Shown: positions 14,112-62,214 of the stretch, piece by piece | How the letters are laid out: each line of letters starts with the position of its first letter | How positions within the stretch are numbered: the stretch's first letter is position 1 | From: an uncultured delta proteobacterium | GTDB taxonomy: Bacteria; Desulfobacterota; Syntrophia; Syntrophales; Smithellaceae | Length of the DNA: 64,000 bases | Assembly (NCBI GenBank): GCA_963851005.1 | Contig: CAWKNI010000002.1 | Location: 76,253-140,252 of the forward strand | Direction of reading: 5' to 3' | Notes under the pieces: generated by a model | What the model was told of the DNA's origin: nothing | The model's database searches: none | The model's input: the letters and a program-made list of their open reading frames with translations, nothing else | Position numbers and translations under genes: made by a program

Positions 14112-15997
14112 TAATTGATTTACATAAAAACCAATTATGCATAAAAAATATTGCTCTTCAATCCTATCAAGTAAGTCAATTAAAGTTTTGGGAATTTAAG
14201 AGTACTGATGAAAATACTTTAGAGTATTCGGGTGAAGATGTAGAAAAAGTATTAGTTAAAGTTTTAAACTACTTTCAAAAAGAAAAAATAAATTTTGAAA
14301 TATCAGAAGACTGCTCAAAAATAATTAACGAAGTATTACTGAAGGAAAATGAATTTAAAAAAACAAAGAAATTAGGCTTGGACTTTAAAAATGGCATTTA
14401 TGATAAAAAATTATTCAGAGAGTTTTCTGAATTTCTAACAACTCATCTAGCAAGAAAATTAAAAAATCATCAACTAAAATCAGCATTCCATCTGTATTTA
14501 ATTCATAACGGAGCGAACTTTTCTGTGCCCGGCAGTGGAAAAACATCCGTTGTGTTAAGCGTTTATGAGAAATTAAAAGAAGAAGGCAAAGTTAATATTC
14601 TTTTTGTTGTTGGACCAGCCGCATGTTTCGGACCATGGAGAAATGAATTTTATGAAACGATAGGAAGAAAGGCAAATTATAAAATTTTGGCAGGAGGAAA
14701 TAAAAATATCCGAAAAGGAGAATATTATGCTAATAAAGAGACGAAAGCAGAATTATATCTAACAACATTCCAAACCTTAATTAATGACCAATCAGAAATA
14801 AATAAATTCTTTTCTCAGAAAGGAATAAATGCTTTTCTGGTAATTGATGAAGCACATTATATCAAACAATTAAATGGAAATTGGGCAAACGCTGTTTTAA
14901 ATATTTCAAAACATACAAAGTTTCGTTGCATATTAACTGGTACACCAATCCCCAATAGATTCAGTGATATCTATAATTTATTTGATTTCTTGTGGCCTGA
15001 GAATGAACCAATTGAGTCAAGCGCAAGAACCAAAATTGAATCACTAGAAAAGAACAATAAGATTGATGATGCAAAAGAAATTTTGGAAAATAAAGTTGGT
15101 TCGTTATTTTACAGAGTCAGGAAAAAGGACCTTGGTTTGACGAAACCAAATTTTCATGAACCAATTATTCTTTCTATGAATAAGTATGAACAAATAATTT
15201 ACAATGCTATTGATAAAAAAATCAGAAACTACGCGATGGAAGATTATTTAAAAAATATTGACTTCATCAATAAATTGAAAAGAGGAAGAATGATGCGATT
15301 GCGTCAAAGCGTTTCATATACAAGTCTCTTATATAAACCAATTGAAAATTACGATGAAGATATTCTTAAAGACGAAAAAGATTTAAGATATATTGTTAGA
15401 GACTACGATACACTTGAGAAACCATCGAAGTTTGAATATTTGGCTGAGAAAATAAAAGAATTACAGAAGAATAATGAAAAGGTTGTGGTATGGACAAATT
15501 TTGTGGGTACAATTGAAAAATTAAAAAAATTTATTACTCAAGACTTAGGTTTACATTGCAAAAGTATTTATGGGAAAACACCAATCGAACAAACAGCAAT
15601 ATTAGATGAATTGACAAGAGAACAAATAAGAGATGAGTTTGTAAATGAAAAAAGCGGATTGGATATCTTAATTGCAAACCCAGCGGCTTGTGCTGAGTCA
15701 ATATCGCTCCATAAAACTTGTCATAACGCTATTTATTATGATTTGAGTTACAACTGTGCACAATATCTTCAATCGCTAGACAGGATTCACAGAGTTGGAG
15801 GTTCTGAAACAGTTGAGGCAAACTATTACTTTCTTCAATACAAAAACGCTATTGACCAAGACATATTGCTTAGCCTGAGACGAAAAGCGAAAAAAATGTA
15901 TCAAATAATAGATAATGATTACGAGATATACTTATTAGATATGTTTGATGACGATGATGAGTTGAAAGCTTATGACAGATTATTTGGCAAAAAATGA
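14108..15997 (+). CDS. SNF2/Rad54-family ATPase (DNA translocase)
   Basis: Motif I VPGSGKT, II VIDEAHYIK, III LTGTPIPN, V ANPAACAESISL, VI QSLDRIHRVGG. ATGA overlaps at both ends. Confidence 0.9.
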   Translation: MIIDLHKNQLCIKNIALQSYQVSQLKFWEFKSTDENTLEYSGEDVEKVLVKVLNYFQKEKINFEISEDCSKIINEVLLKENEFKKTKKLGLDFKNGIYDKKLFREFSEFLTTHLARKLKNHQLKSAFHLYLIHNGANFSVPGSGKTSVVLSVYEKLKEEGKVNILFVVGPAACFGPWRNEFYETIGRKANYKILAGGNKNIRKGEYYANKETKAELYLTTFQTLINDQSEINKFFSQKGINAFLVIDEAHYIKQLNGNWANAVLNISKHTKFRCILTGTPIPNRFSDIYNLFDFLWPENEPIESSARTKIESLEKNNKIDDAKEILENKVGSLFYRVRKKDLGLTKPNFHEPIILSMNKYEQIIYNAIDKKIRNYAMEDYLKNIDFINKLKRGRMMRLRQSVSYTSLLYKPIENYDEDILKDEKDLRYIVRDYDTLEKPSKFEYLAEKIKELQKNNEKVVVWTNFVGTIEKLKKFITQDLGLHCKSIYGKTPIEQTAILDELTREQIRDEFVNEKSGLDILIANPAACAESISLHKTCHNAIYYDLSYNCAQYLQSLDRIHRVGGSETVEANYYFLQYKNAIDQDILLSLRRKAKKMYQIIDNDYEIYLLDMFDDDDELKAYDRLFGKK

Positions 15998-16938
15998 AAA
16001 ATCCATTTGAGAATATCAAGCTATCCCAATTATATTGTCTCTGTAAAATTATTGCAGAATCAGAGTTGAGAGATGAAAATTATATTAGAAGTAAATATCT
16101 AGACAGTGCTTTATTTTTTAACGAAACATCAACGCTTCTGGAAAAGCTAAATATTGTAAACATTAGTGCAGAGGGATTAAAATTTAACAAGAGCTTTGAT
16201 TTTGTAAATTCTTTTGAAGATTTTAAAAAAATATTATTGGAGAAATTATTTCAAGCTAAAGGAGAAGTTTCAAATCAATTAACTGATTTCCTATTGAACT
16301 TTAAGGTTGAATCCAATGACATAATATTCAATGCATCGCTAACGGACAAAATTAAATATAGTGATGCTAGAAATATTTTACTTGAATTAGAATTTATTTC
16401 TGTAAAACCAGATAATGATTCCTATATAATAAATAATAAATATAATGATATATTTTTTAAGAAAATTAATCATGGTGAAATGTCTCTTGAAGTATTTAGA
16501 AAAAACCAATGTGATCAGGATGAACTAGGCGTATCAGCAGAGCGAGCAATTATTGATTTTGAGATAAAACGTCTTACAAATATTTCGATAAATCCTGAAG
16601 ATATCGAACACACTTCTCAAAAAAATGTTTACGCAGGTTATGATATAAAAAGCTTTGAGAATTATTTTGATGATAATTTACTTAAAATCACAAGATACAT
16701 TGAAGTGAAAGCAGTTTCATTATCAGAGTATAATTTTTACTGGTCACGAAATGAAATAGAGAAAGCAAAAATATTTGGAGAAAGATACTATTTATATCTT
16801 ATACCGGTGAAAGTACAAAATATGTTTGATTTTGAAAATTTATTAATAATAAATAATCCTTTCAAAAATATTTATTTAAATCAAAGTGATTGGATAAAAC
16901 AAGAGGAAACTATTTCCCTGTGTAAAAGAGTTAAATGA
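15994..16938 (+). CDS. DUF3883-type PD-(D/E)xK nuclease-fold protein with an unassigned N-terminal domain
   Basis: The C-terminal third carries GVSAERAIIDFE, GYDIKSF, RYIEVKAV, FYWSRNEIEKA and YYLYLI, the DUF3883 pattern with D...E-x-K. Confidence 0.65.
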   Translation: MKNPFENIKLSQLYCLCKIIAESELRDENYIRSKYLDSALFFNETSTLLEKLNIVNISAEGLKFNKSFDFVNSFEDFKKILLEKLFQAKGEVSNQLTDFLLNFKVESNDIIFNASLTDKIKYSDARNILLELEFISVKPDNDSYIINNKYNDIFFKKINHGEMSLEVFRKNQCDQDELGVSAERAIIDFEIKRLTNISINPEDIEHTSQKNVYAGYDIKSFENYFDDNLLKITRYIEVKAVSLSEYNFYWSRNEIEKAKIFGERYYLYLIPVKVQNMFDFENLLIINNPFKNIYLNQSDWIKQEETISLCKRVK

Positions 16939-16942
16939 TTAT

Positions 16943-17854
16943 ATGAAAAAGACAAATACTTTACATATAGACAAAATATATAAAGGTGATTGTGCGAAGT
17001 TGCTTGCTGACTTAGATATCTTCCCTGATAAAAGCGTTAATTTAATAGTCACATCTCCGCCCTACGCAGATAAAAGAAAAGACGCTTATGAAGGTATGCA
17101 CCCTGACAAATATGTTGAGTGGTTTTTGCCTATAGCAAAAGAACTTTACAGAGTATTAAAGGATGATGGTTCTTTTATTTTAAATATTAAAGAACATCCT
17201 AAAAATGGCGAAAGAAGTACTTATGTTTTAGAATTAATTTTAGCATTGAAAAAGCAGGGATGGTTTTGGATTGAGGAATATTGTTGGTATAAGAAAAATT
17301 CATTTCCTGGAAAATGGCCGAACAGATTTAGAGATGCTTGGGAAAGATGTTTACACTTTACAAAGAATAGTGAATTTAAAATGTATCAGGATGAAGTAAA
17401 AGTGCCTATAGGTGATTGGTCAAAAACAAGATTTAAATCTATGAAAGAAAATGATTTTGTTCGGTACATTTCAAAAAATAATAGTCATTTAGGGCGAAAT
17501 GTTTCCAATTGGTTGGAAAAAAAGAAAGTCTATCCACATAATGTACTAGTATTCGAAGAAGAACATCATTTATATCTGAATAATGTAATTGAAACAGCAG
17601 TTGATGTATCCAAAAAGAATCACAGTGCGAAATTTCCAGTAGAGTTGCCTTCTTGGTTTATAAGATTATTTTCAAAGAAGAATGATATTATCTTAGACCC
17701 ATTTCTTGGTTCAGGCACAACGGCAGTTGCTTCAGTTTTACATAATAGAAAATATGTAGGAATAGAATTAAAAAATGAATATTATAAAGAAGCACAAAGA
17801 AATATTGAAGAAGTGCAAAAAATTATGAAAGATAAAAAGGACAAAAAAGAATAA
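16943..17854 (+). CDS. Beta-class DNA amino-methyltransferase (N4-cytosine or N6-adenine)
   Basis: Motif IV VTSPPY comes near the N-terminus and motif I LDPFLGSGTT near the C-terminus (order IV then I = beta class). Confidence 0.9.
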   Translation: MKKTNTLHIDKIYKGDCAKLLADLDIFPDKSVNLIVTSPPYADKRKDAYEGMHPDKYVEWFLPIAKELYRVLKDDGSFILNIKEHPKNGERSTYVLELILALKKQGWFWIEEYCWYKKNSFPGKWPNRFRDAWERCLHFTKNSEFKMYQDEVKVPIGDWSKTRFKSMKENDFVRYISKNNSHLGRNVSNWLEKKKVYPHNVLVFEEEHHLYLNNVIETAVDVSKKNHSAKFPVELPSWFIRLFSKKNDIILDPFLGSGTTAVASVLHNRKYVGIELKNEYYKEAQRNIEEVQKIMKDKKDKKE

Positions 17855-29293: not shown

Positions 29294-30502
29294 ATGCCAA
29301 TTTTTATTTGGGAAGGTACAACAAAAAAAAATGAGATAAGAAAAGGAGAAATAGAGGCAACTGACGAGAGCACTGTTCGTGGCCTTTTGCGCCGGCAAGG
29401 ATTTAAAACCATTGAGGTCAAAAAAAAACCCAAAGACCTTGCTGAATACCTTCCTTTTTTAAAAGGTAAAATTAAGGAAAAAAATGTTGTTGTTTTTTGC
29501 CGAATTTTTTCCACAATGATCAATGCAGGCCTTCCGCTTATTCAGTGTTTGGATCTTTTATCACAACAAGAACAAAACAAAACTTTTTCTAAAATTATTC
29601 GTTCCGTAAAAGAAGATATAGAGGGAGGGACCAGTTTAACCAATGCTTTAAAGAAATACCCTGAAATATTTGATGATCTTTTTGTGAATTTGATCGCTGC
29701 AGGTGAAGCTGGTGGTATATTGGATGTTATTTTGGAACGTCTTTCGGCTTACATGGAAAAAGCGATGAAGTTGAAAGCACGTGTTAAAGGCGCAATGACT
29801 TATCCTTTAGCTGTTCTAGTCATCTCCATTTCCGTAGTCGCTTTATTGCTTCTCAAGGTTATTCCTGTATTTCAAACGATGTTTGAAGGTATGGGCGGAC
29901 AATTGCCCGGTCCTACTGCATTCTTAATTGCGGCAAGTCAGTATACGCAACATTATTTTTTATTTATAGTAGCCATCTTAGTTGTTATTTATATAGCCTT
30001 TAACAGATTTTATAAAACGGAGAGGGGACGCTGGATAATGGATTCTCTGATGCTCAAATCTCCGGTTTTCGGAGAACTGTTGAAAAAAGTTGCTGTGGCC
30101 AAATTTTCTCGTACGCTTTCAACAATGATGAGTTCCGGCGTGCCAATTTTGGAAGGACTGTTAATTGTCAGCAAGACTTCCGGTAATGTAGTTGTCGAAA
30201 ATGCTCTCATGAAAACACGCCAAAGTATTTCCGAAGGCCGGTCTATAGCGGAACCACTTGCCGAGACAGGAATCTTTCCGCCCATGGTTATACAAATGAT
30301 TTCTGTGGGAGAGGCGACAGGCGCCCTGGATTCGATGCTCAGCAAAATAGCTTCTTTTTATGACGATGAAGTTGATTCTGCGGTGGATGCAATGACTGCG
30401 TTATTAGAGCCGATAATGATGGTTTTCTTGGGGGGAGTCGTTGGCGGTATGATTATCGCGATGTATCTGCCTATCTTTAAACTTGCTTCCGTTGTTAGCT
30501 GA
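29294..30502 (+). CDS. pilC: Type IV pilus / type II secretion platform protein (PilC/GspF family)
   Basis: Two GspF repeats (FCRIFSTMINAGLPL.., FSRTLSTMMSSGVPIL..), 3 TM helices, 402 aa. Confidence 0.9.
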   Translation: MPIFIWEGTTKKNEIRKGEIEATDESTVRGLLRRQGFKTIEVKKKPKDLAEYLPFLKGKIKEKNVVVFCRIFSTMINAGLPLIQCLDLLSQQEQNKTFSKIIRSVKEDIEGGTSLTNALKKYPEIFDDLFVNLIAAGEAGGILDVILERLSAYMEKAMKLKARVKGAMTYPLAVLVISISVVALLLLKVIPVFQTMFEGMGGQLPGPTAFLIAASQYTQHYFLFIVAILVVIYIAFNRFYKTERGRWIMDSLMLKSPVFGELLKKVAVAKFSRTLSTMMSSGVPILEGLLIVSKTSGNVVVENALMKTRQSISEGRSIAEPLAETGIFPPMVIQMISVGEATGALDSMLSKIASFYDDEVDSAVDAMTALLEPIMMVFLGGVVGGMIIAMYLPIFKLASVVS

Positions 30503-31293: not shown

Positions 31294-33612
31294 ATGCATA
31301 AAATTTATAAAAGTATCATTGAGAATATTGGAAACACTCCCCTGGTGGAAATCTGCCGCCTTAATCCCAATAAAAAAGTAAAGATTTTTGCTAAACTGGA
31401 AAGTGCTAATCCCGGTGGTTCCATTAAGGATCGCACAGCATTATTCATGATTGAAAATGCGGAAAAGAGGGGCGAATTAACGCCGGCGAAAACTATTTTA
31501 GAAGCAACCAGCGGCAATACCGGAATAGGTTTGGCGATGATTGCCGCGTCTAAGGGATATAAGTTATGTTTAACTATGTCGGAAGCGGCAAGCGAGGAGA
31601 GGAAAAAGATTCTACGGGCCATGGGCGCTGAATTGCATTTTACTCCGGCTGCTCAAGGTACCGATGGCGCCATCGAAGTCGCTTACAAGATGCTGCGTGA
31701 AAATCCGGATAAATATTTCGGTACTGATCAATTCAATAATGATGATAATGTTGCCGCCCATTATTACGGCACTGCTCAGGAAATTTGGGAACAAACCGAC
31801 GGCGCAGTTACTATGGTGGTATCCAGCCTCGGTACAACAGGCACCGCTATGGGAATTTCCAAACGTCTAAAAGAACTAAATCCGGAAATTAAAATTATAG
31901 GAGTTGAACCTTATCTTCAGCATAAGATTCAAGGACTGAAGAACATGCGGGAGTCGTACCGTCCGGGAATATTTGATAAGGCCAGACTCGACGAAAAAGT
32001 AAATATTTTAGATGAAGATGCTTTTGAAATGTCCAGAAGGATCGCCCGTGAAGAAGGCATATTAGCGGGAATGAGTTCCGGTGCGGCCATGTTTGTTGCC
32101 GGTCAGAAGGCAAGGCAAATGGAAGAAGGATTAATTGTTGTCATCTTTCCGGATAGTGGGGAGCGTTATTTAAGCACGGAATTATTTTCTTTTAAGGAAG
32201 ATATTTCTACTTTTAGTCTCTACAACATTCTTAAACGCCGGAAAGATCTGTTCAAACCGATTAAGGCTGATGAAGTGAAAATGCATACCTGTGGACCGAC
32301 AGTTCATGATGCGCCTCATTTGGGAAATTACCGGCGCGTTGTAGTGTCCGATTTAATTTTACGCTATTTAATTTATAAAGGTTACAAAGTAAAGCATGTT
32401 CTGGATATTGTTGATCTCACGGACAAATCTATTAAAGGATCAGAAAGAGAGGGAATGGACCTTTCCGATTATTCCGATAAATATTTAAAAATATTTTTGG
32501 AAGATGCGCAATTTCTGAATATTCATCAGGATAATATTTATGTTAGGGCATCGGAAAACATTGAAGAGATGCTCAAAATTGTCGAGAAATTGGTCGATAA
32601 GAATTATGCATACGAAAAATTACATTCAGTCTATTATGATATTTCTAAATTAGCTGATTATGGTATTCTCTCCAATATTGATTTAGGAAAAACAAGGCTT
32701 GGGAAGACCATAGACCTTGACGAGTATGAAAAGGATCACCCGATGGATTTTGCTTTGCTGAGGCGGGCAAATCTGGGGGAACTGAAAAGAGGTATTTACT
32801 ATAAAACTAAATGGGGCAATGTCAGGCCCGGCTGGCATTTGGAATGTTCGGCAATTTCTAATAAGTACCTGGGGGCAACTTATGACATTAACGTAAGCGG
32901 GGCTGATGAAACGTTTCCCCATTGTGAAAATATTTTAGCCATTAATAAAGCGATTTCCGGTTGCAGCGGAGCTAATTACTGGATAAATGCCGAGTTGATT
33001 TTGGTTGAAGGCAAAAAAATGTCGCGTTCTCTGAATAACGCGTTGCCGTTGGTTAAATTGCGTCAAAACGGTTACAGCGGCAGGGATATACGTTTTTTTC
33101 TGTTGGCGATGCATTATCGTAAGCCGGTTAATTATTCGGAAGGCGCACTGCAGACGGCAAAAAATACGGTTAAGAAAATCCATACATTTATTTGCCGGCT
33201 CAACGCCGTTAAAGATGATAAAGAAAATGGTTTTGTGGAGATCGATCAACTAATATACGATCTTAAGCATGATTTCGTAGCCGCGTTAGACGATGATTTA
33301 AATATTGCTAGTGCGCTGGCAGCGCTTTTTAATTTTATTGGTAAAATAAATTTTCCTTTAACCCGGGGTATGATAAATAGAGGCAATGCCCGGAAAATAC
33401 TGGCGGCACTGGCAAATATCAACGAAGTGCTGGGAGTAATGGATTTTGATATGCAGGTTGCTCAAGAGGAAATAAGCGAGTTAATCAATAAAAGAGAGGC
33501 TGCCAGAGGCGCTCATAATTGGGAGAAAGCAGATTCCTATAGAGCGCAGTTAGCCGAACTTGGCGTTGATGTTTTGGACACATCCCAAGGAGTTGTCTGG
33601 CGATTTAAATAG
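31294..33612 (+). CDS. Apparent fusion: cysteine synthase (CysK/CysM-type PLP enzyme, aa 1-~298) + divergent cysteinyl-tRNA synthetase (aa ~308-772)
   Basis: N-terminal part: GGSIKDR (PLP Lys45), TSGNTGIGLA, GTTGT, SSGAA, DSGERYLSTELF. C-terminal part: CGPTVHDAPHLGN (HIGH-like), WHLECSA, FPHCENI, KMSRS, and the anticodon-binding and C-terminal CysRS tail. Confidence 0.8.
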   Translation: MHKIYKSIIENIGNTPLVEICRLNPNKKVKIFAKLESANPGGSIKDRTALFMIENAEKRGELTPAKTILEATSGNTGIGLAMIAASKGYKLCLTMSEAASEERKKILRAMGAELHFTPAAQGTDGAIEVAYKMLRENPDKYFGTDQFNNDDNVAAHYYGTAQEIWEQTDGAVTMVVSSLGTTGTAMGISKRLKELNPEIKIIGVEPYLQHKIQGLKNMRESYRPGIFDKARLDEKVNILDEDAFEMSRRIAREEGILAGMSSGAAMFVAGQKARQMEEGLIVVIFPDSGERYLSTELFSFKEDISTFSLYNILKRRKDLFKPIKADEVKMHTCGPTVHDAPHLGNYRRVVVSDLILRYLIYKGYKVKHVLDIVDLTDKSIKGSEREGMDLSDYSDKYLKIFLEDAQFLNIHQDNIYVRASENIEEMLKIVEKLVDKNYAYEKLHSVYYDISKLADYGILSNIDLGKTRLGKTIDLDEYEKDHPMDFALLRRANLGELKRGIYYKTKWGNVRPGWHLECSAISNKYLGATYDINVSGADETFPHCENILAINKAISGCSGANYWINAELILVEGKKMSRSLNNALPLVKLRQNGYSGRDIRFFLLAMHYRKPVNYSEGALQTAKNTVKKIHTFICRLNAVKDDKENGFVEIDQLIYDLKHDFVAALDDDLNIASALAALFNFIGKINFPLTRGMINRGNARKILAALANINEVLGVMDFDMQVAQEEISELINKREAARGAHNWEKADSYRAQLAELGVDVLDTSQGVVWRFK

Positions 33613-35805: not shown

Positions 35806-38115
35806 TTATTTAATACAGACGCGGCGCACCTGTGTAATATCGGTAAGACCTTCGAAGGCCTTTAAAATGCCATCTTGTAAAAGTGTCGTCATGCCTTCGC
35901 TCATGGCTTTATTCCGCATGACTTCCACCGTTTCATGAATTTGCACCATTCTCTTAATATCCTCGGAGGCGATTAAAAGTTCATGGATAGCAGCTCTGCC
36001 GATATATCCGGTTTTGTCGCAAAAATCACAACCCTTCGGCCGGTATAGCTTGAAGTCGTCATTGTAAGGAATATTTAATTTATTGAAAGCTTCCTGACCA
36101 TAGGCTTCGGCAATATCCTCGTATTCTTCCTTTGAGGGATGGTACTGCTCCTTGCATCTCTGGCAAAGAGTTCTTACAAGGCGCTGGGCAAGAATGCCCA
36201 ATAAAGCGTCGGCAAAGTTCAGAGGGTCGATGCCCATATCCAGCAGGCGCACAATAGTTTCCGAGGCGCTGTTGGTATGCAAACTGGTGAACACGAGATG
36301 GCCGGTCAGGGAGGCCTCAACGCCTATTTTGGCTGTTTCGAAATCACGCATTTCACCGACCATGATAATGTCAGGATCAGCACGCAAAAAGGAGCGCATA
36401 GCGGCGGCAAAATCGAAGCCGATCTTATGTTGCACCTGTACTTGACGCAAACCGTATTGGGTAATTTCTACCGGGTCTTCCGCCGTCCATATTTTTCTGT
36501 TCGGTTTATTAATATGGTGCAGGGCCGCATGCAGCGTGGTTGTTTTACCGCAGCCGCTGGGGCCAACGCACAAAATCATGCCGTAAGGCTTGGAAATAAT
36601 ATTAACCATCTCTTTGTAATTGCGCGGCAATAAATCCATCTCTTCCAGTGGTATGGTTTCGCCTTCAGACAAACTTCCACCTAAAATACGCATCACCAAA
36701 TCTTCCATGCCGCCTTGAGTTGGAATTGTCGTTACACGCAATTCAAATTCATCTCCGGTGGGGCGCCTGAATTTAATCTTCCCGTCCTGCGGCAGTCTTT
36801 TAACGGTAATATCCAGATTCGACATGATTTTGATGCGCGAATTAATAGCCTCACGGTAGCTGAAAGGAAGAGTTTGATAAAGAGCGCAGACTCCGTCAAC
36901 ACGGAACCGAATCTCCACATTTTTTTTGTCTGCATGAGGTTCAACATGTATATCCGAAGCGCGGCGACCATAAGCATCATTAATAATTTTATTGACTAGC
37001 TGCATGATGATACTGTCCGATTCGGTGACTATTTCGCCGTCTTCATCTTCTTCCGGCGTCGAATCCTCACCTTCCATTTTACCCAATATTTCTGTAAAAG
37101 AATGTTCATCCGCGGGAGAACTGAAAAAGAGATTGATGTATTTAATTATATCTTCCTCTAAGGCGACATCATATTTTATCTGTTTGGTTTTTAAAAGATG
37201 TTCTATGGTGTCTTTCTTAATAAGGTTGTTCGGATCATCCATGATTACATGAATCTTGTCACCGATCGTTTCCAGAGGCACCCAGAGTTCACGGCGCAGG
37301 TAATTCTTTTTTAAATTCTTAATTAAATGGCCGGGAATAGGTATTTTTTCATTATATCTAATAAAACGGCAGTTATAAAATTCCTCGAAAGCTTTACCAA
37401 TATCATCTTTGGATATCTTGTATTTGCTTATGAGGTAATCTTCTATTACTTCTTTCTTTTCCCGTGATTCTTTCCATGCGCTTTCCAACTCCTCTTCTTT
37501 GAGCAGATCGTGGTTGATTAAATAATCAAACCGCGTTTTCCGTTGACGCACAAAACGTTGTTGGTTGTAAAAGGCAACGCCGAGAACCTCGGCAATTTCA
37601 AGCGCCAAACCTATTTCCTCTTCGGAAAATTTCCCCTCGCCAACCTTTTTGTTGAGAATTTGGATGACACCCATGAGTTGATTGCTATTGTAAATTGGAG
37701 CGGCAAGAACTTGCCTGGTTTTAAAGCCTGTTTTTTTATCCCAGTTATCATCGAAACTTAATTCAGCTTCTATATTCTTAAGTTCTTTTTGATTGTAGGC
37801 ATTTTCAATATTAATGACCGTACCCGTGTTGGCTACATAACCGGCGATACTTTTATTATTGATTGGCAATCTGATTTCTTTGAGTTGTGTGCCGGCCAGA
37901 AGCAAGGAATAAATTTCATTGCGTAATTTATCGACCACGTAAATGGTTATGGAATGGGCGTTAAAAAGATTGAGAATGCCGTTTTTTAAATCGACAAGGA
38001 TTTGTTTGATATTCTGCGCAGCATGAATACGGTTGGTTATATCCAATAAATCCTTGCGTATCTGGGGATTACCATTCATGGCTGTTGAAGATGATGGTTT
38101 TAACTGACCGTTCAT
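35806..38115 (-). CDS. GAF-domain GspE/PilB-family secretion ATPase, paralogue 1 (variant Walker A GPSGCGKTT)
   Basis: N-terminal GAF (ITIYVVDKLRNEIY..AGYVANTGTVINIENAY..GVIQILNKK), T2SSE_N-like region, Walker A, DPDIIMVGEMRD, TGHLVFTSLHTNSA, and a tetra-Cys cluster CQRC...CDFC. Confidence 0.9.
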   Translation of the reverse strand: MNGQLKPSSSTAMNGNPQIRKDLLDITNRIHAAQNIKQILVDLKNGILNLFNAHSITIYVVDKLRNEIYSLLLAGTQLKEIRLPINNKSIAGYVANTGTVINIENAYNQKELKNIEAELSFDDNWDKKTGFKTRQVLAAPIYNSNQLMGVIQILNKKVGEGKFSEEEIGLALEIAEVLGVAFYNQQRFVRQRKTRFDYLINHDLLKEEELESAWKESREKKEVIEDYLISKYKISKDDIGKAFEEFYNCRFIRYNEKIPIPGHLIKNLKKNYLRRELWVPLETIGDKIHVIMDDPNNLIKKDTIEHLLKTKQIKYDVALEEDIIKYINLFFSSPADEHSFTEILGKMEGEDSTPEEDEDGEIVTESDSIIMQLVNKIINDAYGRRASDIHVEPHADKKNVEIRFRVDGVCALYQTLPFSYREAINSRIKIMSNLDITVKRLPQDGKIKFRRPTGDEFELRVTTIPTQGGMEDLVMRILGGSLSEGETIPLEEMDLLPRNYKEMVNIISKPYGMILCVGPSGCGKTTTLHAALHHINKPNRKIWTAEDPVEITQYGLRQVQVQHKIGFDFAAAMRSFLRADPDIIMVGEMRDFETAKIGVEASLTGHLVFTSLHTNSASETIVRLLDMGIDPLNFADALLGILAQRLVRTLCQRCKEQYHPSKEEYEDIAEAYGQEAFNKLNIPYNDDFKLYRPKGCDFCDKTGYIGRAAIHELLIASEDIKRMVQIHETVEVMRNKAMSEGMTTLLQDGILKAFEGLTDITQVRRVCIK

Positions 38116-38125
38116 GAAGTAATTT
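36938..38125. repeat. 1188-bp segment identical to 39314-40501 in every stretch I compared (5' part of paralogue 1 plus 10 nt upstream)
   Basis: Constant offset of 2376 nt. The encoded first ~392 aa are identical, and antisense ORFs 36992-37252/39368-39628 and 37543-37761/39919-40137 translate identically. Confidence 0.9.
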
Positions 38126-38193
38126 TACCCTTAATATATTGAATTAAATTCTTTCACTATATGAATAGAACCAAGGAATTAGGGAAAATAAAG

Positions 38194-40491
38194 TTATCTA
38201 ATACAAACGCGGTACACCTGAGTAACATCGGTAAGACCTTTGATGGTCTTTAGAAGACCGTCTTGTAAAAGTGTCGTCATGCCCTCGCTCATGGCTTTAT
38301 TCCGTATGACTTCCACAGTCTCATGTTTTTGCACCATTCTCTTAATAGCATCGGTGCCGATTAACAATTCATGGATAGCGACTCTGCCTCTATATCCGGT
38401 ATTGTCGCAGTCATCACAACCCTTCGGCCGGTATAGCTTGAAGTCGTCATTGTAAGGAATATTTAATTTATTGAAAGCTTCCTGACCGTAGCCTTCAGCG
38501 ATGTCGTCGTATTCTTTCTTCGGAGGATGATATTGTTCCTTGCATTTTTTGCAAAGAGTTCTTACAAGACGCTGGGCAAGAATGCCCAATAAAGCGTCGG
38601 CAAAATTAAAAGGGTCAATGCCCATATCCAGTAGGCGCACAACAGTTTCCGGGGCGCTGTTGGTATGCAGAGTGCTGAACACCAGATGACCGGTCAGGGA
38701 TGCCTCAACGCCTATTTTGGCTGTTTCGAAATCACGCATTTCACCGACCATAATAACGTCAGGATCAGCACGCAAAAAGGAGCGCATAGCGGCGGCAAAA
38801 TCAAAACCGATCTTAGATTGCACCTGTACTTGACGCAAACCGTGTTGGGTAATTTCTACCGGGTCTTCCGCCGTCCATATTTTTCTGTCCGGTTTATTAA
38901 TATGGTGCAGGGCTGCATGCAACGTGGTTGTTTTACCGGAACCTGTAGGGCCGACGCACAAAATAATGCCGTAAGGCTTGGAAATAATATTAACCATCTC
39001 TTTGTAAGTATTCGGCGATAAAGCCATCTCTTCCAGTGGCATGGTGTCGCCTTTAGCCAAAATACGCATCACCACATCTTCCACCTCTCCCTGGGTGGGA
39101 ATTGTAGCTACACGCAATTCAATTTCATTTCCGGTGGGGCGCCTGAATTTAATCTTCCCGTCCTGCGGCAGTCTTTTAACGGTAATATCCAGATTCGACA
39201 TGATTTTGATGCGCGAAATAAGGGCGGCGCGGTAACTGAAAGGAAGAGTTTGATAAAGAGCGCAGTCTCCGTCAACACGGAACCGAATCTCCACATTTTT
39301 TTTACCTACATTGGGTTCAACATGTATATCCGAAGCGCGGCGACCATAAGCATCATTAATAATTTTATTGACTAGCTGCATGATGATACTGTCCGATTCG
39401 GTGACTATTTCGCCGTCTTCATCTTCTTCCGGCGTCGAATCCTCACCTTCCATTTTACCCAATATTTCTGTAAAAGAATGTTCATCCGCGGGAGAACTGA
39501 AAAAGAGATTGATGTATTTAATTATATCTTCCTCTAAGGCGACATCATATTTTATCTGTTTGGTTTTTAAAAGATGTTCTATGGTGTCTTTCTTAATAAG
39601 GTTGTTCGGATCATCCATGATTACATGAATCTTGTCACCGATCGTTTCCAGAGGCACCCAGAGTTCACGGCGCAGGTAATTCTTTTTTAAATTCTTAATT
39701 AAATGGCCGGGAATAGGTATTTTTTCATTATATCTAATAAAACGGCAGTTATAAAATTCCTCGAAAGCTTTACCAATATCATCTTTGGATATCTTGTATT
39801 TGCTTATGAGGTAATCTTCTATTACTTCTTTCTTTTCCCGTGATTCTTTCCATGCGCTTTCCAACTCCTCTTCTTTGAGCAGATCGTGGTTGATTAAATA
39901 ATCAAACCGCGTTTTCCGTTGACGCACAAAACGTTGTTGGTTGTAAAAGGCAACGCCGAGAACCTCGGCAATTTCAAGCGCCAAACCTATTTCCTCTTCG
40001 GAAAATTTCCCCTCGCCAACCTTTTTGTTGAGAATTTGGATGACACCCATGAGTTGATTGCTATTGTAAATTGGAGCGGCAAGAACTTGCCTGGTTTTAA
40101 AGCCTGTTTTTTTATCCCAGTTATCATCGAAACTTAATTCAGCTTCTATATTCTTAAGTTCTTTTTGATTGTAGGCATTTTCAATATTAATGACCGTACC
40201 CGTGTTGGCTACATAACCGGCGATACTTTTATTATTGATTGGCAATCTGATTTCTTTGAGTTGTGTGCCGGCCAGAAGCAAGGAATAAATTTCATTGCGT
40301 AATTTATCGACCACGTAAATGGTTATGGAATGGGCGTTAAAAAGATTGAGAATGCCGTTTTTTAAATCGACAAGGATTTGTTTGATATTCTGCGCAGCAT
40401 GAATACGGTTGGTTATATCCAATAAATCCTTGCGTATCTGGGGATTACCATTCATGGCTGTTGAAGATGATGGTTTTAACTGACCGTTCAT
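38194..40491 (-). CDS. GAF-domain GspE/PilB-family secretion ATPase, paralogue 2 (canonical Walker A GPTGSGKTT)
   Basis: Same architecture as paralogue 1. I place the start at ATG 40491, the same MNGQLKP start as paralogue 1, rather than TTG 40518. Confidence 0.9.
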   Translation of the reverse strand: MNGQLKPSSSTAMNGNPQIRKDLLDITNRIHAAQNIKQILVDLKNGILNLFNAHSITIYVVDKLRNEIYSLLLAGTQLKEIRLPINNKSIAGYVANTGTVINIENAYNQKELKNIEAELSFDDNWDKKTGFKTRQVLAAPIYNSNQLMGVIQILNKKVGEGKFSEEEIGLALEIAEVLGVAFYNQQRFVRQRKTRFDYLINHDLLKEEELESAWKESREKKEVIEDYLISKYKISKDDIGKAFEEFYNCRFIRYNEKIPIPGHLIKNLKKNYLRRELWVPLETIGDKIHVIMDDPNNLIKKDTIEHLLKTKQIKYDVALEEDIIKYINLFFSSPADEHSFTEILGKMEGEDSTPEEDEDGEIVTESDSIIMQLVNKIINDAYGRRASDIHVEPNVGKKNVEIRFRVDGDCALYQTLPFSYRAALISRIKIMSNLDITVKRLPQDGKIKFRRPTGNEIELRVATIPTQGEVEDVVMRILAKGDTMPLEEMALSPNTYKEMVNIISKPYGIILCVGPTGSGKTTTLHAALHHINKPDRKIWTAEDPVEITQHGLRQVQVQSKIGFDFAAAMRSFLRADPDVIMVGEMRDFETAKIGVEASLTGHLVFSTLHTNSAPETVVRLLDMGIDPFNFADALLGILAQRLVRTLCKKCKEQYHPPKKEYDDIAEGYGQEAFNKLNIPYNDDFKLYRPKGCDDCDNTGYRGRVAIHELLIGTDAIKRMVQKHETVEVIRNKAMSEGMTTLLQDGLLKTIKGLTDVTQVYRVCIR

Positions 40492-40501
40492 GAAGTAATT
40501 T
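39314..40501. repeat. Second copy of the 1188-bp identical segment
   Basis: See the entry for 36938-38125. Confidence 0.9.
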
Positions 40502-40598
40502 CCCCTTAATATCTTCAAACTAATGTTATATTATAGCAGTGATTTATATTAATGTCAATGTGTTTGGTATTGAACGTCTGCTGCGATAAATAAAAAAA

Positions 40599-44636: not shown

Positions 44637-44761
44637 ATACCAATTCTAAATCAAAGCGCTATTTTTGTTGGCGTCGTTGTCGGCTTCCTCAACGTATGTA
44701 CAATACGCCTCGTCGCCTCCGCCTAGCCGCCTCAATATCACCTTTGATTTAGAAATGGTAT
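44637..44761. repeat. 125-bp palindromic intergenic repeat (MITE/REP-like), reference copy
   Basis: Terminal inverted repeats ATACCAATTCTAAATCAAAG / CTTTGATTTAGAAATGGTAT (1 mismatch) and central hairpin CGTAT-GTACA-ATACG. Confidence 0.85.
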
Positions 44762-48856: not shown

Positions 48857-49267
48857 ATGATTGGTGCGCTTATTATTACACATGGTAATTTTGGAAATGA
48901 GTTGATAAAAGCCGCTGAATTAATCAAAGGGCCGATAGGCGATATATTACATGTTTGCGTCGAGCAGACAAAAAATGTCGAGGATTTAAAAAAAGAAATC
49001 AGCAATGCCATAAAAAAACTGGATAAAGGTAAGGGCGTGTTGATTCTTACCGATCTTTTTGGCGGTACGCCTTCCAACATTTCTCTTTCTTTTATCAAAG
49101 AAGGAAAAGTTGAAGTTCTTACCGGAGTTAATTTACCCATGGTGCTCAAATTGTCTGAAGTTAAAGAAGATATGACTTTACAGGACTATGCCTGCCTCAT
49201 TAAAAATTACGGGGAAAAAAATATTATGTTGGCCAGTGAAATTTTGAGCAAGAAAGCTAACAGGTAA
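48857..49267 (+). CDS. PTS mannose-family EIIA component
   Basis: MIGALIITHGNFG.. with the phospho-His context, and LILTDLFGGTPSN. Confidence 0.85.
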   Translation: MIGALIITHGNFGNELIKAAELIKGPIGDILHVCVEQTKNVEDLKKEISNAIKKLDKGKGVLILTDLFGGTPSNISLSFIKEGKVEVLTGVNLPMVLKLSEVKEDMTLQDYACLIKNYGEKNIMLASEILSKKANR

Positions 49268-49386
49268 TGATCCTGCGATTATTAACCGTGGGATAATTTG
49301 ACTTACAAATTTCAGTTCACTTTGTTTCTGAAACTTGAGTCTCATTATAATAGGGAGTCTTTGGCTCCTGCCAGAGGGGGCTCCAT

Positions 49387-49884
49387 TTGGCGAAAGATTT
49401 TAACATAGTTTTGGTTCGAGTTGACAGCAGGCTTGTCCACGGTCAAATATTGGAAGCATGGGTCCCCCACGTCAGGGCGAAATGTATTATTGTAGTTGAC
49501 AATAAAGTAGCCGGCGATTCCTTTTTTGAAACCATAATCAGAATGGCCGTGCCCAGCGAAATCGAAGTGATTATCTGCTCTGTAAATGATTTTGTGAAAA
49601 ATTATACTTTCACCCACAGTGAAGGGAAAAAAACAATCGTGTTATTTAGCAATATTGCTGACGCGTACGATGCTTTTAATCAGGGTTTTCATTTTGATAA
49701 GTTAAATATCGGTAATGTCTACAATAATGAATATAAGATTTGTTGTTCCCCCTCAGTCTTTTTATGTGATAAAGAAATCAAATGTATTAAAAATCTATTG
49801 GAAGGTTCCCGGGTTGTTGTTGAATTAAAAAGGATACCGAAGGGGAAAACTATCGATATTAAGGAAGCTTTGAAGGATTGTTAA
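49387..49884 (+). CDS. PTS mannose-family EIIB component
   Basis: VLVRVDSRLVHGQI motif; TTG start with a purine-rich RBS. Confidence 0.8.
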   Translation: MAKDFNIVLVRVDSRLVHGQILEAWVPHVRAKCIIVVDNKVAGDSFFETIIRMAVPSEIEVIICSVNDFVKNYTFTHSEGKKTIVLFSNIADAYDAFNQGFHFDKLNIGNVYNNEYKICCSPSVFLCDKEIKCIKNLLEGSRVVVELKRIPKGKTIDIKEALKDC

Positions 49885-49911
49885 AATACAAAACCATAAA
49901 GGTATTTAGAA

Positions 49912-50610
49912 TTGTTTACGGAAATTATTTTAGCATCTTTTTGCGGCGGCTTGTTATGTCTTGATCGAGTTTTTATTCAAGCCATGATTTCCCGGCCGGT
50001 TATCATAGCTCCTATTATCGGACTGATTTTGCATAATCCTTACGCAGGACTGGTCATCGGAGCATTTGTTGAACTTATCTGGATTGATCGCATTCCCATA
50101 GGAACTTATATTCCTCCCAACAACTCCATAACGGCTGTTGTGGCAACTTCAACTGCTGTGATTGCCGGCCAAAAAATGGGAGGCATATCCCGACCGGAAT
50201 TAATTGCGCTTTCGATACTTATAGCTATTCCTTGCGGAATATTAGCCAAGCAGATGGATGTCATGATTATTAAATCCAACAACACTCTTTCCGATCTGGC
50301 GCTGGCGGATGCAAAAAAAAATAATATCCGGGAAATAGAACGAAAAAATTATTTAGGGTTAATTAAAGTATTCTTATTTGATGTAGCTTATGTTTTAGTA
50401 ATTCTATGGATCTTTATTCCTTCTGTAATCTGGCTGTATCCTAAATTAAATGCAACGATCCTATCAACTCTTTCTTTTACCTATTATTTTCTACCGCTGC
50501 TGGGGATTGCCGTGGCCATTAATATGCTAAAACTTCAGAGAGCAATTCCCGTTTTTTGCGCGATATTTTTAGTTGTGGCCGTACTTTTGGAATTATTTCA
50601 TGTCCTATGA
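49912..50610 (+). CDS. PTS mannose-family EIIC-like membrane protein
   Basis: Multi-TM protein with LDRVFIQAMISRPVI..G...G similar to ManY/AgaW N-termini. TTG start is uncertain. Confidence 0.6.
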   Translation: MFTEIILASFCGGLLCLDRVFIQAMISRPVIIAPIIGLILHNPYAGLVIGAFVELIWIDRIPIGTYIPPNNSITAVVATSTAVIAGQKMGGISRPELIALSILIAIPCGILAKQMDVMIIKSNNTLSDLALADAKKNNIREIERKNYLGLIKVFLFDVAYVLVILWIFIPSVIWLYPKLNATILSTLSFTYYFLPLLGIAVAINMLKLQRAIPVFCAIFLVVAVLLELFHVL

Positions 50611-58968: not shown

Positions 58969-59093
58969 ATACCAATGCTAAATCAAAGCGCTATTTTTGT
59001 TGTCGTCGTTGTCGGCTTCCTCAACGTATGTACAATACGCCTCGTCGCCTCCACCTAGCCGCCTCAATATCATCTTTGATTTAGAAATGGTAT
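58969..59093. repeat. 125-bp palindromic intergenic repeat, second near-identical copy
   Basis: Aligns end to end with 44637-44761 with only a handful of substitutions. It abuts the stop codon of the GGDEF gene. Confidence 0.85.
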
Positions 59094-61918: not shown

Positions 61919-62094
61919 GTCAAAGGATAACGAGGCGGCAGTGAAACTCGAATGACAGTTACGCAGTAAAGTGAAATTCGTTAGTTGTAATGAGATTCAA
62001 AATTCAGGAGCAACGTAAACTGAATTTTGTAAATCGAATTGAGGAAGCCGACAACAACGCCAACAAAAATAGCGCTTTGATTTAGAATTGGTAT
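61919..62094. repeat. Rearranged/expanded copy of the palindromic repeat family (reverse orientation)
   Basis: 62041-62094 is the reverse complement of the left arm of the 44637 copy (1 mismatch). 61920-61939 resembles the other arm (TCAAAGG-ATAACGAGGCGGC). The core is replaced by a different hairpin, CAAAATTCAG..CTGAATTTTG. Confidence 0.6.
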
Positions 62095-62214
62095 TATACC
62101 CTCCTTTCCCAAAGGAGGGTTAGGGAGGATTTTTTAATGTTGAGAAAGCCGACGACCCCGGCCTGCGCCGCGGCAGGCTGTGCCAACAAAGTTAGCCGAA
62201 GAAAAAACGTGATA

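What the first reader, a model, noticed from the sequence alone, without database searches (positions are those of the whole stretch)
35806..40501. Tandem GAF-GspE ATPase paralogues with identical sensor halves and diverged motor halves
Seen: two co-oriented genes (35806-38115 and 38194-40491, minus strand) encode GAF + T2SSE_N + ATPase proteins.
- From 10 nt upstream of the ATG through codon ~392, the DNA (36938-38125 versus 39314-40501, 1188 bp at a constant 2376-nt offset) is identical in every stretch I compared. Even the antisense ORF translations are identical.
- In the remaining ~375 codons I count roughly 55-60 amino-acid substitutions plus one 4-residue indel.
- The promoter-proximal and downstream flanks differ between the two genes.
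- Both ATPase halves keep Walker A/B, the His box and the tetra-Cys cluster.

Inference: this reflects either very recent gene conversion homogenising the sensory/regulatory N-terminus, or a recent duplication of only the 5' half onto an older paralogue. The result is two motors under an identical input domain. One possibility is an extension/retraction-like or substrate-specialised pair controlled by one ligand via GAF. No other pilus or T2SS genes are adjacent; pilC lies 6 kb away.
Basis: partly seen in the sequence, partly recalled or inferred. Interest (0 to 1): 0.72.

Follow-up and report, generated by a model that had tools for sequence, protein, structure and literature searches.

The report
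Tandem motor genes, shared sensor half
Two neighbouring copies of a pilus/secretion motor ATPase gene in a Smithella-like genome are identical across their sensor half, apparently through repeated gene conversion, while their motor halves have stayed distinct across at least two species; this is a clear example of a known evolutionary process, not a new kind of system.

Summary
Window 36938-38125 and 39314-40501 are 1188 nt of exact identity at offset 2376. The remaining 3' ~1.12 kb differs at 115 sites plus one 12-nt indel (56 amino-acid substitutions and a 4-residue insertion). Both genes encode GAF + MshEN + T2SSE (PilB/GspE-type) ATPases with intact catalytic motifs.

It is not an assembly artefact. 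The same B-then-A tandem between glyS and a DUF218 gene occurs in an independent ENA contig and in two JGI contigs from a second Smithella species. All share the same B-A junction spacer.

In that second species the 5' halves are also identical to each other, but they differ from the window's 5' half (dS ~0.23). Their tract ends also differ (-27..+1004 and +29..+991, against -10..+1178 here). The motor halves group A-with-A and B-with-B across species and are under purifying selection.

So this is an older whole-gene duplication whose sensor half undergoes recurrent gene conversion, while the two motor types are maintained. The extension/retraction idea is not supported, because both are assembly-type ATPases. 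What the pair does remains unknown. I rate it a new member of a known kind, of moderate interest.

The parts
38194..40491 (-). Gene B. A GAF-MshEN-T2SSE ATPase of 765 aa, promoter-proximal, directly downstream of glyS. Its Walker A is the canonical GPTGSGKT.
   Evidence: ORF, translation, Pfam and motifs. Orthologous B copies occur in L167 and L168.
35806..38115 (-). Gene A. A GAF-MshEN-T2SSE ATPase of 769 aa, promoter-distal. It is the derived 'A-type' motor: Walker A GPSGCGKT, His box TS instead of ST, and a 4-residue longer N2D-CTD linker.
   Evidence: A-type orthologues are P0005, P0243 and P0244.
36938..38125 (-). Identical tract, copy in A. It covers 10 nt of 5' UTR plus codons 1-392 and two bases of codon 393: GAF, MshEN, the acidic linker and the first ~28 residues of the T2SSE match.
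   Evidence: The exact run was found.
39314..40501 (-). Identical tract, copy in B.
35806..36937 (-). Diverged motor half of A (N2D, linker and CTD). It is 10.3% different from B at the nucleotide level.
38194..39313 (-). Diverged motor half of B.
36671..36684 (-). Approximate site of the 12-nt insertion in A (residues ~478-481, 'LGGS'). It lies in the linker between the last N2D strand (VMRIL) and the CTD.
   Evidence: The offset changes from 2376 to 2388 here. The column analysis is and the alignment to PilF/PilB. The segment is coil in a low-confidence AF2 model.
38116..38193 (-). The 78-nt B-A spacer, which is the duplication junction. Its last ~28 nt are diverged homologues of the RBS-proximal 5' UTR of B. 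No promoter-like -35/-10 pair and no terminator were found in it.
   Evidence: It is homologous over its whole length to the B-A spacers of L167 and L168.
40530..40558 (-). Consensus sigma-70-type promoter (TTGACA-17-TATAAT, 12/12, with TG before the -10) upstream of B. It is conserved upstream of the single-copy orthologues and probably drives both B and A.
   Evidence: with the alignment of upstream regions.
29294..30502 (+). T2SSF/PilC-like platform gene, the only other pilus/T2SS component found in the window. A copy within 10 kb of the ATPase gene was found only in Smithella and related Syntrophales loci.
   Evidence: Pfam and tblastn across 166 loci.

Best explanation
**What is shown**
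The locus carries two adjacent paralogous genes on the chromosome of a Smithella-like bacterium (Syntrophales). Each encodes a GAF-MshEN-PilB/GspE-type ATPase.

A whole-gene tandem duplication arose once, before at least two Smithella species split. It spans roughly the RBS region to the stop codon. Since then the 5' ~1.0-1.2 kb (GAF sensor, MshEN/N1 domain, acidic linker) has been homogenised repeatedly. I attribute this to homologous-recombination gene conversion between the two copies, with independent tracts in each lineage.

The 3' ~1.1 kb (N2D, hinge and CTD motor) has remained two distinct, orthologously conserved types, A and B. Each type carries fixed substitutions at positions invariant in 118 single-copy orthologues, and each is under purifying selection.

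**What is inferred**
- B and A are co-transcribed from the single conserved promoter upstream of B.
- Both products share one N-terminal input/docking module, so they see the same signal and the same partner. Their motor properties differ, through the P-loop, His box and hinge length in A and several CTD sites in B.
- The domain limit of homogenisation arises because conversion persists where the copies are still similar. Selection against converted motor halves, together with the 10% divergence itself, keeps conversion out of the 3' half.
- Whether the two motors act as separate homohexamers or as mixed hexamers is unknown.
For: **Anatomy**
The 1188-nt exact tract lies against a 10.3% diverged remainder. 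Diverged homology continues upstream of the tract into the RBS region.

**Independent occurrences of the tandem**
- ENA contig L001 is identical across both genes. Over 12,022 aligned nt it has one SNP, at window 42662, and its other end does not match the window.
- JGI contigs L167 (304 kb) and L168 (24 kb) carry B (765 aa) then A (769 aa) between glyS and DUF218.
- The B-A spacers of all three are homologous over their whole length, which indicates a single origin.

**Concerted evolution**
- In L167 the two copies are identical from -27 to nt 1004. In L168 they are identical from nt 29 to 991, with 9 mismatches at nt 7-28.
- For the N part, dS within a genome is 0 (window, L167) to 0.012 (L168), against 0.23-0.24 between species.

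**Orthology of the motor halves**
- In the NJ tree the A clade has 84% support and the B clade 90%. A+B together separate from the single-copy L084/L085 with 84-100% support.
- dS is 0.237 for A-A, 0.257 for B-B and 0.30 across paralogue types.
- Both species share the A insertion and GPSGCGKT. Both also share the B-specific E482D, N495T, Y550H, L628F, R760Y and K765R.

**Selection**
- omega is 0.20 for A-A and 0.13 for B-B, against 0.09 between single-copy orthologues.
- Post-duplication branches are enriched in nonsynonymous changes: stem A has S8/N18 and winB S12/N19, against S39/N15 on the branch shared by winA, winB and the L083 A-type gene.
- Of 205 C-half columns invariant in 118 orthologues, 11 are changed in A and 6 in B. 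Only 1 of 103 invariant N-half columns is changed.

**Expression signals and motifs**
- There is a 12/12 promoter upstream of B only, and no terminator in the spacer.
- All catalytic motifs are intact.

**Distribution**
Of the 146 loci fetched from GTDB species representatives and JGI metagenome contigs that were tested and found to encode a relative, only two carry a second full-length copy, and both are Nitrospina.
Against: - Third-codon-position trees do not resolve A-A/B-B orthology (supports of 24-46%). Within-genome A-B dS (0.23-0.24) is about the same as ortholog dS, so orthology rests mainly on nonsynonymous sites, the shared indel and the shared junction.
- Twelve sites, ten of them synonymous, are shared derived states of winA and winB but not of the other species' A. 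This suggests some exchange in the motor half too.
- Exact identity could be slightly overstated by assembly or polishing.
- Co-transcription, partner sharing and functional divergence are inferred and were not measured.
- Three ENA contigs of the second species show a single A-type gene. The tandem is therefore either unstable in nature or collapsed by assemblers.
Confidence: 0.8

Rival explanations
1. The identity of the sensor halves is itself selected. The two motors may need the same N-terminal module to co-assemble into mixed hexamers or to dock on one platform protein. On this view conversion is favoured rather than merely tolerated.
For: - Homogenisation occurred independently in two species, and in every case it covers the GAF and MshEN domains, though with different 5' and 3' ends.
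- Both paralogues carry fixed changes at otherwise invariant motor sites. A's changes are concentrated in the N2D and hinge, and B's mostly in the CTD, which is compatible with co-adapted N2D-CTD contacts.
- The genes appear to form a single operon.
Against: - The same pattern is expected without such selection. Conversion is self-sustaining where copies are identical and is blocked where they have diverged.
- There are too few substitutions to test co-evolution, and no structural or biochemical data exist.
- L168 tolerates 9 differences at the extreme 5' end.
Confidence: 0.25
2. The tandem, or the exact identity, is an assembly artefact. Either two strain alleles (A-type and B-type) were chained together, or a repeat consensus was copied into both positions.
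For: - Single-gene versions of the locus exist in related contigs: A-type in L083/L169/L170 and single-copy ancestral-type (B-like) in L084/L085.
- Several A-type genes are cut by contig ends (L086, P0209, P0242, P0247, P0248), which shows that assemblers struggle here.
Against: - The 78-nt B-A spacer is a unique sequence that joins the two genes. It is conserved, at roughly 80% identity by eye from the alignment, in a second species.
- The tandem is seen in four contigs from three assemblies and two species.
- L083 equals L168 minus exactly one repeat unit, with 35 mismatches in 13.9 kb. The single form is therefore the derived or collapsed one.
- The window's B has species-level divergence from L084/L085, so it is not a strain allele.
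Confidence: 0.03
3. Gene A is a redundant duplicate drifting towards loss. Its unusual P-loop and hinge reflect relaxed constraint, not a maintained function.
For: - The nonsynonymous/synonymous ratio is elevated on the A stem (S8/N18).
- A has changes at 11 columns invariant in 118 orthologues, including two in Walker A.
- A-type genes are rare: 10 sequences in one 90% cluster plus two partial ones.
Against: - A-A omega between species is 0.20, the reading frames are intact, and all catalytic motifs are kept in the five full-length A-type sequences checked, from two species.
- A-specific residues are conserved between species.
- GxxGxGKT is still a valid P-loop.
- In the pop-out/collapsed form it is the A motor that remains.
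Confidence: 0.07
4. A was not born by local duplication. It was imported by recombination from another Smithella lineage (a xenologue inserted next to the resident gene), and conversion of the 5' half followed.
For: - Gene segments around this locus give conflicting trees among closely related lineages. The N part and DUF218 place the L083/L167 species next to L084, whereas the motor halves place it with the window.
- L086, from a much more distant genome (flank dS 1.4-1.8), carries an A-like gene whose motor half is closer to the window's (dS 0.8-0.9).
Against: - The A and B motor halves are each other's closest relatives relative to all single-copy orthologues sampled (100% support at third positions; 54 shared derived sites).
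- The spacer keeps homology to the gene's own 5' UTR.
- Transfer of the finished pair between lineages remains possible, and it is compatible with the main explanation.
Confidence: 0.1

Closest known systems
Type IV pilus assembly ATPases PilB/PilF (M. xanthus PilB 3jc8; Geobacter PilB 5tsg/5tsh; Thermus PilF 6f8l) and T2SS GspE/EpsE (4pht, 1p9r)
   Same: They share an N1/MshEN-like domain, N2D, a hinge, a CTD with Walker A/B and His box, and a tetracysteine cluster. These are the best PDB sequence matches, at E 1e-105 to 1e-87 over residues ~190-768. The best NCBIfam models are PilB and GspE.
   Different: - These proteins have an extra N-terminal GAF domain.
- Their scores are below both equivalog cut-offs (483-508 against 675.65 for PilB; 455-484 against 630.25 for GspE).
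- The gene is not embedded in a pilus or T2SS operon.
- There are two tandem copies, and A has a variant P-loop (GPSGCGKT) and a hinge 4 residues longer.
MshE/MshEN c-di-GMP receptor ATPases (Wang et al. 2016, PMC5013675)
   Same: The Pfam MshEN domain lies directly upstream of the ATPase.
   Different: Neither the strict 24-residue motif RLGxx(L/V/I)(L/V/I)xxG(L/V/I)(L/V/I)xxxxLxxxLxxQ nor the authors' relaxed motif is present. The hydrophobic skeleton is kept but the glycines are not. This resembles the non-binding XpsE/GspE N-domains. The sensory role is more likely taken by the GAF domain.
Concerted evolution of bacterial paralogues by gene conversion, for example tufA/tufB in Salmonella and rRNA operons (my own knowledge, not checked here)
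   Same: Within the tract, paralogues in one genome are identical while orthologues between genomes differ. Tract boundaries are sharp and events in separate lineages are independent.
   Different: Homogenisation here is confined to the regulatory half of a multidomain gene. The half left diverged is the catalytic half, which in this family is normally the more conserved one (83.9% against 76.8% mean identity to orthologues).
Tandem GAF-GspE pairs in Nitrospina (loci L047, L054)
   Same: They belong to the same protein family and have two adjacent co-oriented copies.
   Different: The pattern is the opposite and the ordinary one. The N-terminal parts are 19-50% identical and the C-terminal ATPase 77-98% identical at protein level. 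The nucleotide identity there is only ~80%, so this is old divergence with no recent conversion.
PilT/PilU retraction-type ATPase pairs
   Same: Two adjacent paralogous motors of the same superfamily.
   Different: PilT-type proteins lack the N1 domain and the tetracysteine cluster. A and B score 164-179 bits against the PilT subfamily cut-off of 319. Neither is a retraction-type motor.

Membership tests
PilB/GspE-type (T2SSE) assembly ATPase superfamily | T2SSE domain (PF00437) above the gathering score | tested here: met
   A scores 371 bits and B 397 bits, against a cut-off of 24.9.
PilB/GspE-type (T2SSE) assembly ATPase superfamily | Walker A, Walker B-type acidic box and His box | tested here: met
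   A has GPSGCGKT and B has GPTGSGKT. Both have DPD(I/V)IMVGEMRD. The His box is TGHLVF(TS/ST)LHT.
PilB/GspE-type (T2SSE) assembly ATPase superfamily | Tetracysteine (two CxxC) cluster, typical of assembly rather than retraction ATPases | tested here: met
   A has CQRC and CDFC. B has CKKC and CDDC.
Type IVa pilus PilB (TIGR02538 equivalog) | Score at or above the curated equivalog cut-off | tested here: not met
   Scores are 483 and 508 bits against a cut-off of 675.65.
T2SS GspE (TIGR02533 equivalog) | Score at or above the curated equivalog cut-off | tested here: not met
   Scores are 455 and 484 bits against a cut-off of 630.25.
Pilus/T2SS machinery locus | ATPase gene clustered with platform, pilin/pseudopilin and secretin genes | tested here: inconclusive
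   Only a T2SSF/PilC-like gene lies nearby, 5.3 kb away among housekeeping genes. In the other phyla sampled no PilC lies within 10 kb. The rest of the genome was not available.
PilT/PilU retraction ATPases (TIGR01420) | Subfamily score cut-off | tested here: not met
   Scores are 164 and 179 bits against a cut-off of 319.1. In addition, an N1/MshEN domain and a tetracysteine cluster are present, which from my own knowledge PilT-type proteins lack.
MshEN c-di-GMP receptors | Tandem 24-residue c-di-GMP-binding motifs (strict, or the relaxed form of PMC5013675) | tested here: not met
   A regex search for both forms finds nothing in A or B. One skeleton match (TRFDYLINHDLL...) lacks the conserved Gly residues.
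GAF-domain sensors | GAF domain above the Pfam gathering score | tested here: met
   PF01590 scores 33.3 and 33.2 bits against 22.4, over residues 50-181.
GAF-domain sensors | An identified small-molecule ligand | not testable with these tools
   - There is a weak similarity to the PtsP GAF region (E 5e-5).
- A class III cyclase gene lies next to the homologue in Geotalea (L075), and cyclase-like genes lie within the fetched flanks of about 10 other loci. That frequency could be chance.
Concerted evolution by gene conversion | Paralogues within a genome more alike than orthologues between genomes, within the tract only | tested here: met
   For the N part, dS is 0-0.012 within a genome against 0.23-0.24 between species. 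For the C part, orthologues show 0.24-0.26 and cross-type pairs 0.30, with an A clade at 84% and a B clade at 90%.
Concerted evolution by gene conversion | Independent tracts with different end points in different lineages | tested here: met
   The tract is -10..+1178 in the window, -27..+1004 in L167 and +29..+991 in L168.

The most novel reading that the evidence does not exclude
The pair may be a two-state or heteromeric motor system built on one shared sensor/docking module. A and B subunits, with co-adapted N2D, hinge and CTD changes, would assemble into mixed hexamers.

Alternatively, the ~1-kb identical direct repeat may act as a recombination switch. RecA-mediated pop-out leaves a single promoter-N-half-A-motor gene, which is exactly the form seen in L083, L169 and L170. 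Populations would then toggle between a two-motor and an A-only state.
Probability: 0.12. Interest if true: 0.6.

Novelty: new member of a known kind. Interest (0 to 1): 0.4.

Why it matters
- **A natural domain-swap experiment.** The pair has the same GAF-MshEN input on two different PilB/GspE-type motors that have been kept apart by selection in at least two species. It marks a small set of motor residues as candidates for what distinguishes them: P-loop T->S and S->C, His-box ST->TS, a hinge 4 residues longer, and several otherwise invariant CTD sites in B.
- **An uncharacterised family.** GAF-fused 'orphan' assembly ATPases are widespread in Desulfobacterota/Syntrophales, Nitrospirota, Nitrospinota and Acidobacteriota. 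My four full-text searches found no study of them.
- **A practical warning.** This ~1-kb exact repeat appears to collapse or break metagenome assemblies, so copy number at this locus is probably under-reported.

Tried and rejected
- **Homologue search with A's motor half alone.** It returned mostly truncated proteins and did not even list A or P0005. A-type relatives were found by signature grep and by exact cluster look-up.
- **Metagenome-contig scan with an A-specific 174-aa query.** The 80 loci kept contained no A-type gene and no tandem.
- **AlphaFold2 on a 42-sequence alignment.** Mean pLDDT was 52 and pTM 0.31, too poor for fold search or for mapping substitutions. I used only the coil assignment of the hinge, and with caution.
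- **Spacer homology to the gene's 3' flank.** Only short AT-rich matches of 10-21 aligned nt appeared, so I do not claim it. Only the RBS-proximal ~28 nt are convincingly homologous to B's 5' UTR.
- **Nitrospina tandem pairs as a second example of partial conversion.** Rejected, because their 3' halves are only ~80% identical in DNA.
- **Cyclase adjacency as evidence for a cyclic-nucleotide ligand.** About 11-13 of 166 loci show it, which is not clearly above chance.
- **Extra short conversion tracts in the motor half.** Two identical runs of 75 and 88 nt exceed the 95th and 99th percentiles of random placement. They lie in very conserved coding segments, so this is only suggestive.
- **Literature.** Four full-text searches found no study of GAF-fused PilB/GspE ATPases.
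- **My first reading of L083.** I first took the single A-type gene to mean that A and B are alternative alleles. I abandoned this once L167 and L168 showed the tandem in the same species.
Full report
**1. The observation**

Two co-oriented minus-strand ORFs, A (35806-38115, 769 aa) and B (38194-40491, 765 aa), are present.

- At a constant offset of 2376 nt the DNA is identical from 36938 to 38125 versus 39314 to 40501. That is 1188 nt, running from 10 nt upstream of the ATG to the second base of codon 393.
- Beyond that point the copies align at offset 2388, which implies one 12-nt indel. They differ at 115 of about 1120 sites.
- No third copy exists in the window.
- With 10.3% background divergence, an 1188-nt run of identity has a probability of about 1e-56 (my arithmetic).
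- The proteins differ in 56 substitutions plus a 4-residue insertion in A.

Both proteins exceed the Pfam thresholds for GAF (residues 50-181), MshEN (258-334) and T2SSE (365-765). Both keep Walker A, the acidic Walker B-type box, the His box and two CxxC pairs.

**2. Organism and context**

The nearest homologues, at 82-88% identity, are named Smithella sp. or Smithellaceae by their sources.

The neighbourhood is housekeeping: glyQ and glyS upstream of B. Downstream of A lie DUF218, AMMECR1, Memo, a PALP-CysRS fusion, DUF1178 and a T2SSF/PilC-like gene at 29294-30502. No other pilus or T2SS gene is in the window.

A perfect sigma-70-type promoter (TTGACA-17-TATAAT with TG) lies upstream of B, at 40558-40530. 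It is conserved upstream of single-copy orthologues. The 78-nt B-A spacer has neither a promoter-like pair nor a terminator. I therefore infer a B-A operon.

**3. It is not an artefact**

An ENA contig (L001, 12.3 kb) carries both genes with the same sequence. Over 12,022 aligned nt it differs from the window by one SNP, at window 42662, and its other end does not match the window. It is therefore a separate assembly.

An exact look-up of A's 90% cluster gave ten members. Two of them lie on JGI contigs from different samples: L167 (304 kb) and L168 (24 kb). Both show B (765 aa) followed by A (769 aa) between glyS and DUF218.

The B-A spacers of the window, L167 and L168 align over their full length. 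The duplication junction is therefore shared, and the duplication arose once.

**4. Concerted evolution limited to the sensor half**

L167 and L168 belong to a second species. The dS of flanking genes against the window is about 0.35-0.46, measured on its conspecific L083.

- In L167, A and B are identical from -27 to nt 1004.
- In L168 they are identical from nt 29 to 991, with nine mismatches at nt 7-28.
- These tract ends differ from the window's (-10..+1178).

For codons 1-330, dS is 0 between paralogues in the window and in L167, and 0.012 in L168. It is 0.23-0.24 between species.

For codons 401-end, dS is 0.237 for A-A, 0.257 for B-B, 0.23-0.24 for A-B within a genome and 0.30 for A-B across genomes. 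An NJ tree gives an A clade at 84% and a B clade at 90%. Both together separate from the single-copy orthologues L084 and L085 with 84-100% support.

Both species share A's insertion and GPSGCGKT. Both also share B's six derived residues at sites invariant in 118 single-copy orthologues: E482D, N495T, Y550H, L628F, R760Y and K765R.

Diverged homology also continues upstream of the identical tract into the RBS region, with 24 of 28 positions matching.

Together these results show an older whole-gene duplication with recurrent, lineage-independent gene conversion of the 5' half.

One caveat applies. Third-position trees do not resolve A-A/B-B orthology. In addition, twelve mostly synonymous sites are shared by winA and winB only. 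Some exchange in the motor half has probably occurred.

**5. Selection**

Both motor types are constrained. omega is 0.20 for A-A and 0.13 for B-B, against 0.09 for the single-copy pair L084-L085.

Post-duplication branches are enriched in replacements. The A stem has S8/N18 and winB has S12/N19, against S39/N15 on the branch shared by winA, winB and the L083 A-type gene.

Of 205 C-half columns invariant in 118 orthologues, A has changed 11 and B has changed 6. In the N-half only 1 of 103 invariant columns has changed.

In this family the ATPase half is normally the more conserved one: 83.9% against 76.8% mean identity, with C above N in 97 of 118 orthologues. The pair therefore shows the reverse of the usual pattern.

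A's changes cluster in the N2D and the N2D-CTD hinge: positions 394, 395, 409, 422, 425, 457, 470, 473, the insertion at 478-481, and 483-496. Further changes lie in the P-loop (T520S, S522C), the His box (T611S) and P618S. In alignments to PilF and PilB the insertion falls in the linker after the VMRIL strand.

**6. Single-gene forms**

The ENA contigs L083, L169 and L170 show one A-type gene behind the ancestral promoter. L083 equals L168 minus exactly one repeat unit, with 35 mismatches in 13.9 kb. This is the expected product of recombination between the identical 5' halves, whether in the cell or in the assembler.

Other A-type genes are cut by contig ends on the DUF218 side (L086, P0209). 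Cluster members P0242, P0247 and P0248 are also shorter than full length, but I did not examine their contigs.

Loci L084 and L085, and 78 of the 80 loci fetched from GTDB species representatives, carry a single copy. Of the 80 JGI metagenome loci, the 66 that could be tested also carry one copy. Only Nitrospina has tandem pairs. Those are old and show the ordinary pattern of diverged N-termini and a conserved ATPase at about 80% DNA identity.

**7. What it does**

Membership in the PilB/GspE assembly-ATPase superfamily is clear. The equivalog cut-offs for PilB and GspE are not met, and the PilT cut-off is missed by a wide margin.

The closest solved relatives are the T4P assembly motors PilF and PilB, followed by GspE.

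The MshEN domain lacks both the strict and the relaxed c-di-GMP motif of PMC5013675. The GAF domain is therefore the likelier sensor, and its ligand is unknown. The hints are a weak resemblance to the PtsP GAF region and a cyclase gene next to the Geotalea homologue.

I infer that both motors share one input/docking module and differ in motor properties. Whether they work separately or as mixed hexamers cannot be decided here.

An extension/retraction division of labour is not supported.

**8. Verdict**

The finding is real, robustly replicated and explained by a known mechanism: tandem duplication followed by domain-limited concerted evolution. The protein family is annotated but unstudied in the literature I could search.

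I rate it a new member of a known kind. It is of moderate interest as a natural domain-swap pair and as a warning about assemblies.

Noticed in passing
window 12717-17854: A low-GC island (29-36% GC, against 40-52% around it) encodes four proteins: an unknown 464-aa protein, an SNF2/ZorD-like helicase, a NOV_C-domain protein and a type II N6/N4 DNA methyltransferase. It looks like an acquired defence or restriction-modification island.
   Followed up: partly
window 31294-33612 (+): A single 772-aa ORF fuses a PALP (cysteine-synthase-like) domain to a complete cysteinyl-tRNA synthetase. The fusion is conserved at 772 aa in L083, L086, L167 and L168.
   Followed up: no
window 44637-44761, 58969-59093 and 62039-62096: A ~125-nt interspersed repeat occurs three times at 92-98% identity, once in inverted orientation. 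The first copy lies in an intergenic region. It may be a small mobile or REP-like element.
   Followed up: no
L083, L169, L170 versus L168: Three ENA contigs of the second species carry the exact 'one repeat unit deleted' form of the locus: promoter, N-half, then the A motor. This is either natural pop-out variants or systematic assembly collapse at the 1-kb repeat.
   Followed up: partly
L047 6907-12820; L054 6812-12844 (Nitrospina): An independent, old tandem pair of longer (~950-1000 aa) GAF-GspE genes has very different N-terminal regions and a conserved ATPase. An extra GAF-like match lies upstream.
   Followed up: partly
L075 12325-14319 (Geotalea); also L066, L072, L137, L142, L031, L046, L009: A CHASE2 or other class III nucleotidyl cyclase gene lies next to or near the GAF-GspE homologue in several unrelated lineages. 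This is a possible hint to a cyclic-nucleotide input, but it is not clearly above chance.
   Followed up: partly
L086 1-1378 (NCBI MAG GCA_016927935.1, Syntrophaceae): An A-like gene (GPSGCGKT and a 4-residue hinge insertion) occurs in a much more distant genome (flank dS 1.4-1.8). Its motor half is closer to the window's (dS 0.8-0.9). This suggests lateral spread of the A type or of the pair.
   Followed up: partly
window 46968 onward versus L001 1-269: The otherwise identical ENA contig stops matching the window at 46968. This is a strain-level rearrangement or a contig-end artefact.
   Followed up: no
window 48857-50610 (+): A mannose/sorbose-family PTS gene set (EIIA, EIIB, EIIC) lies in this syntroph-like genome, followed by a GNAT acetyltransferase.
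   Followed up: no
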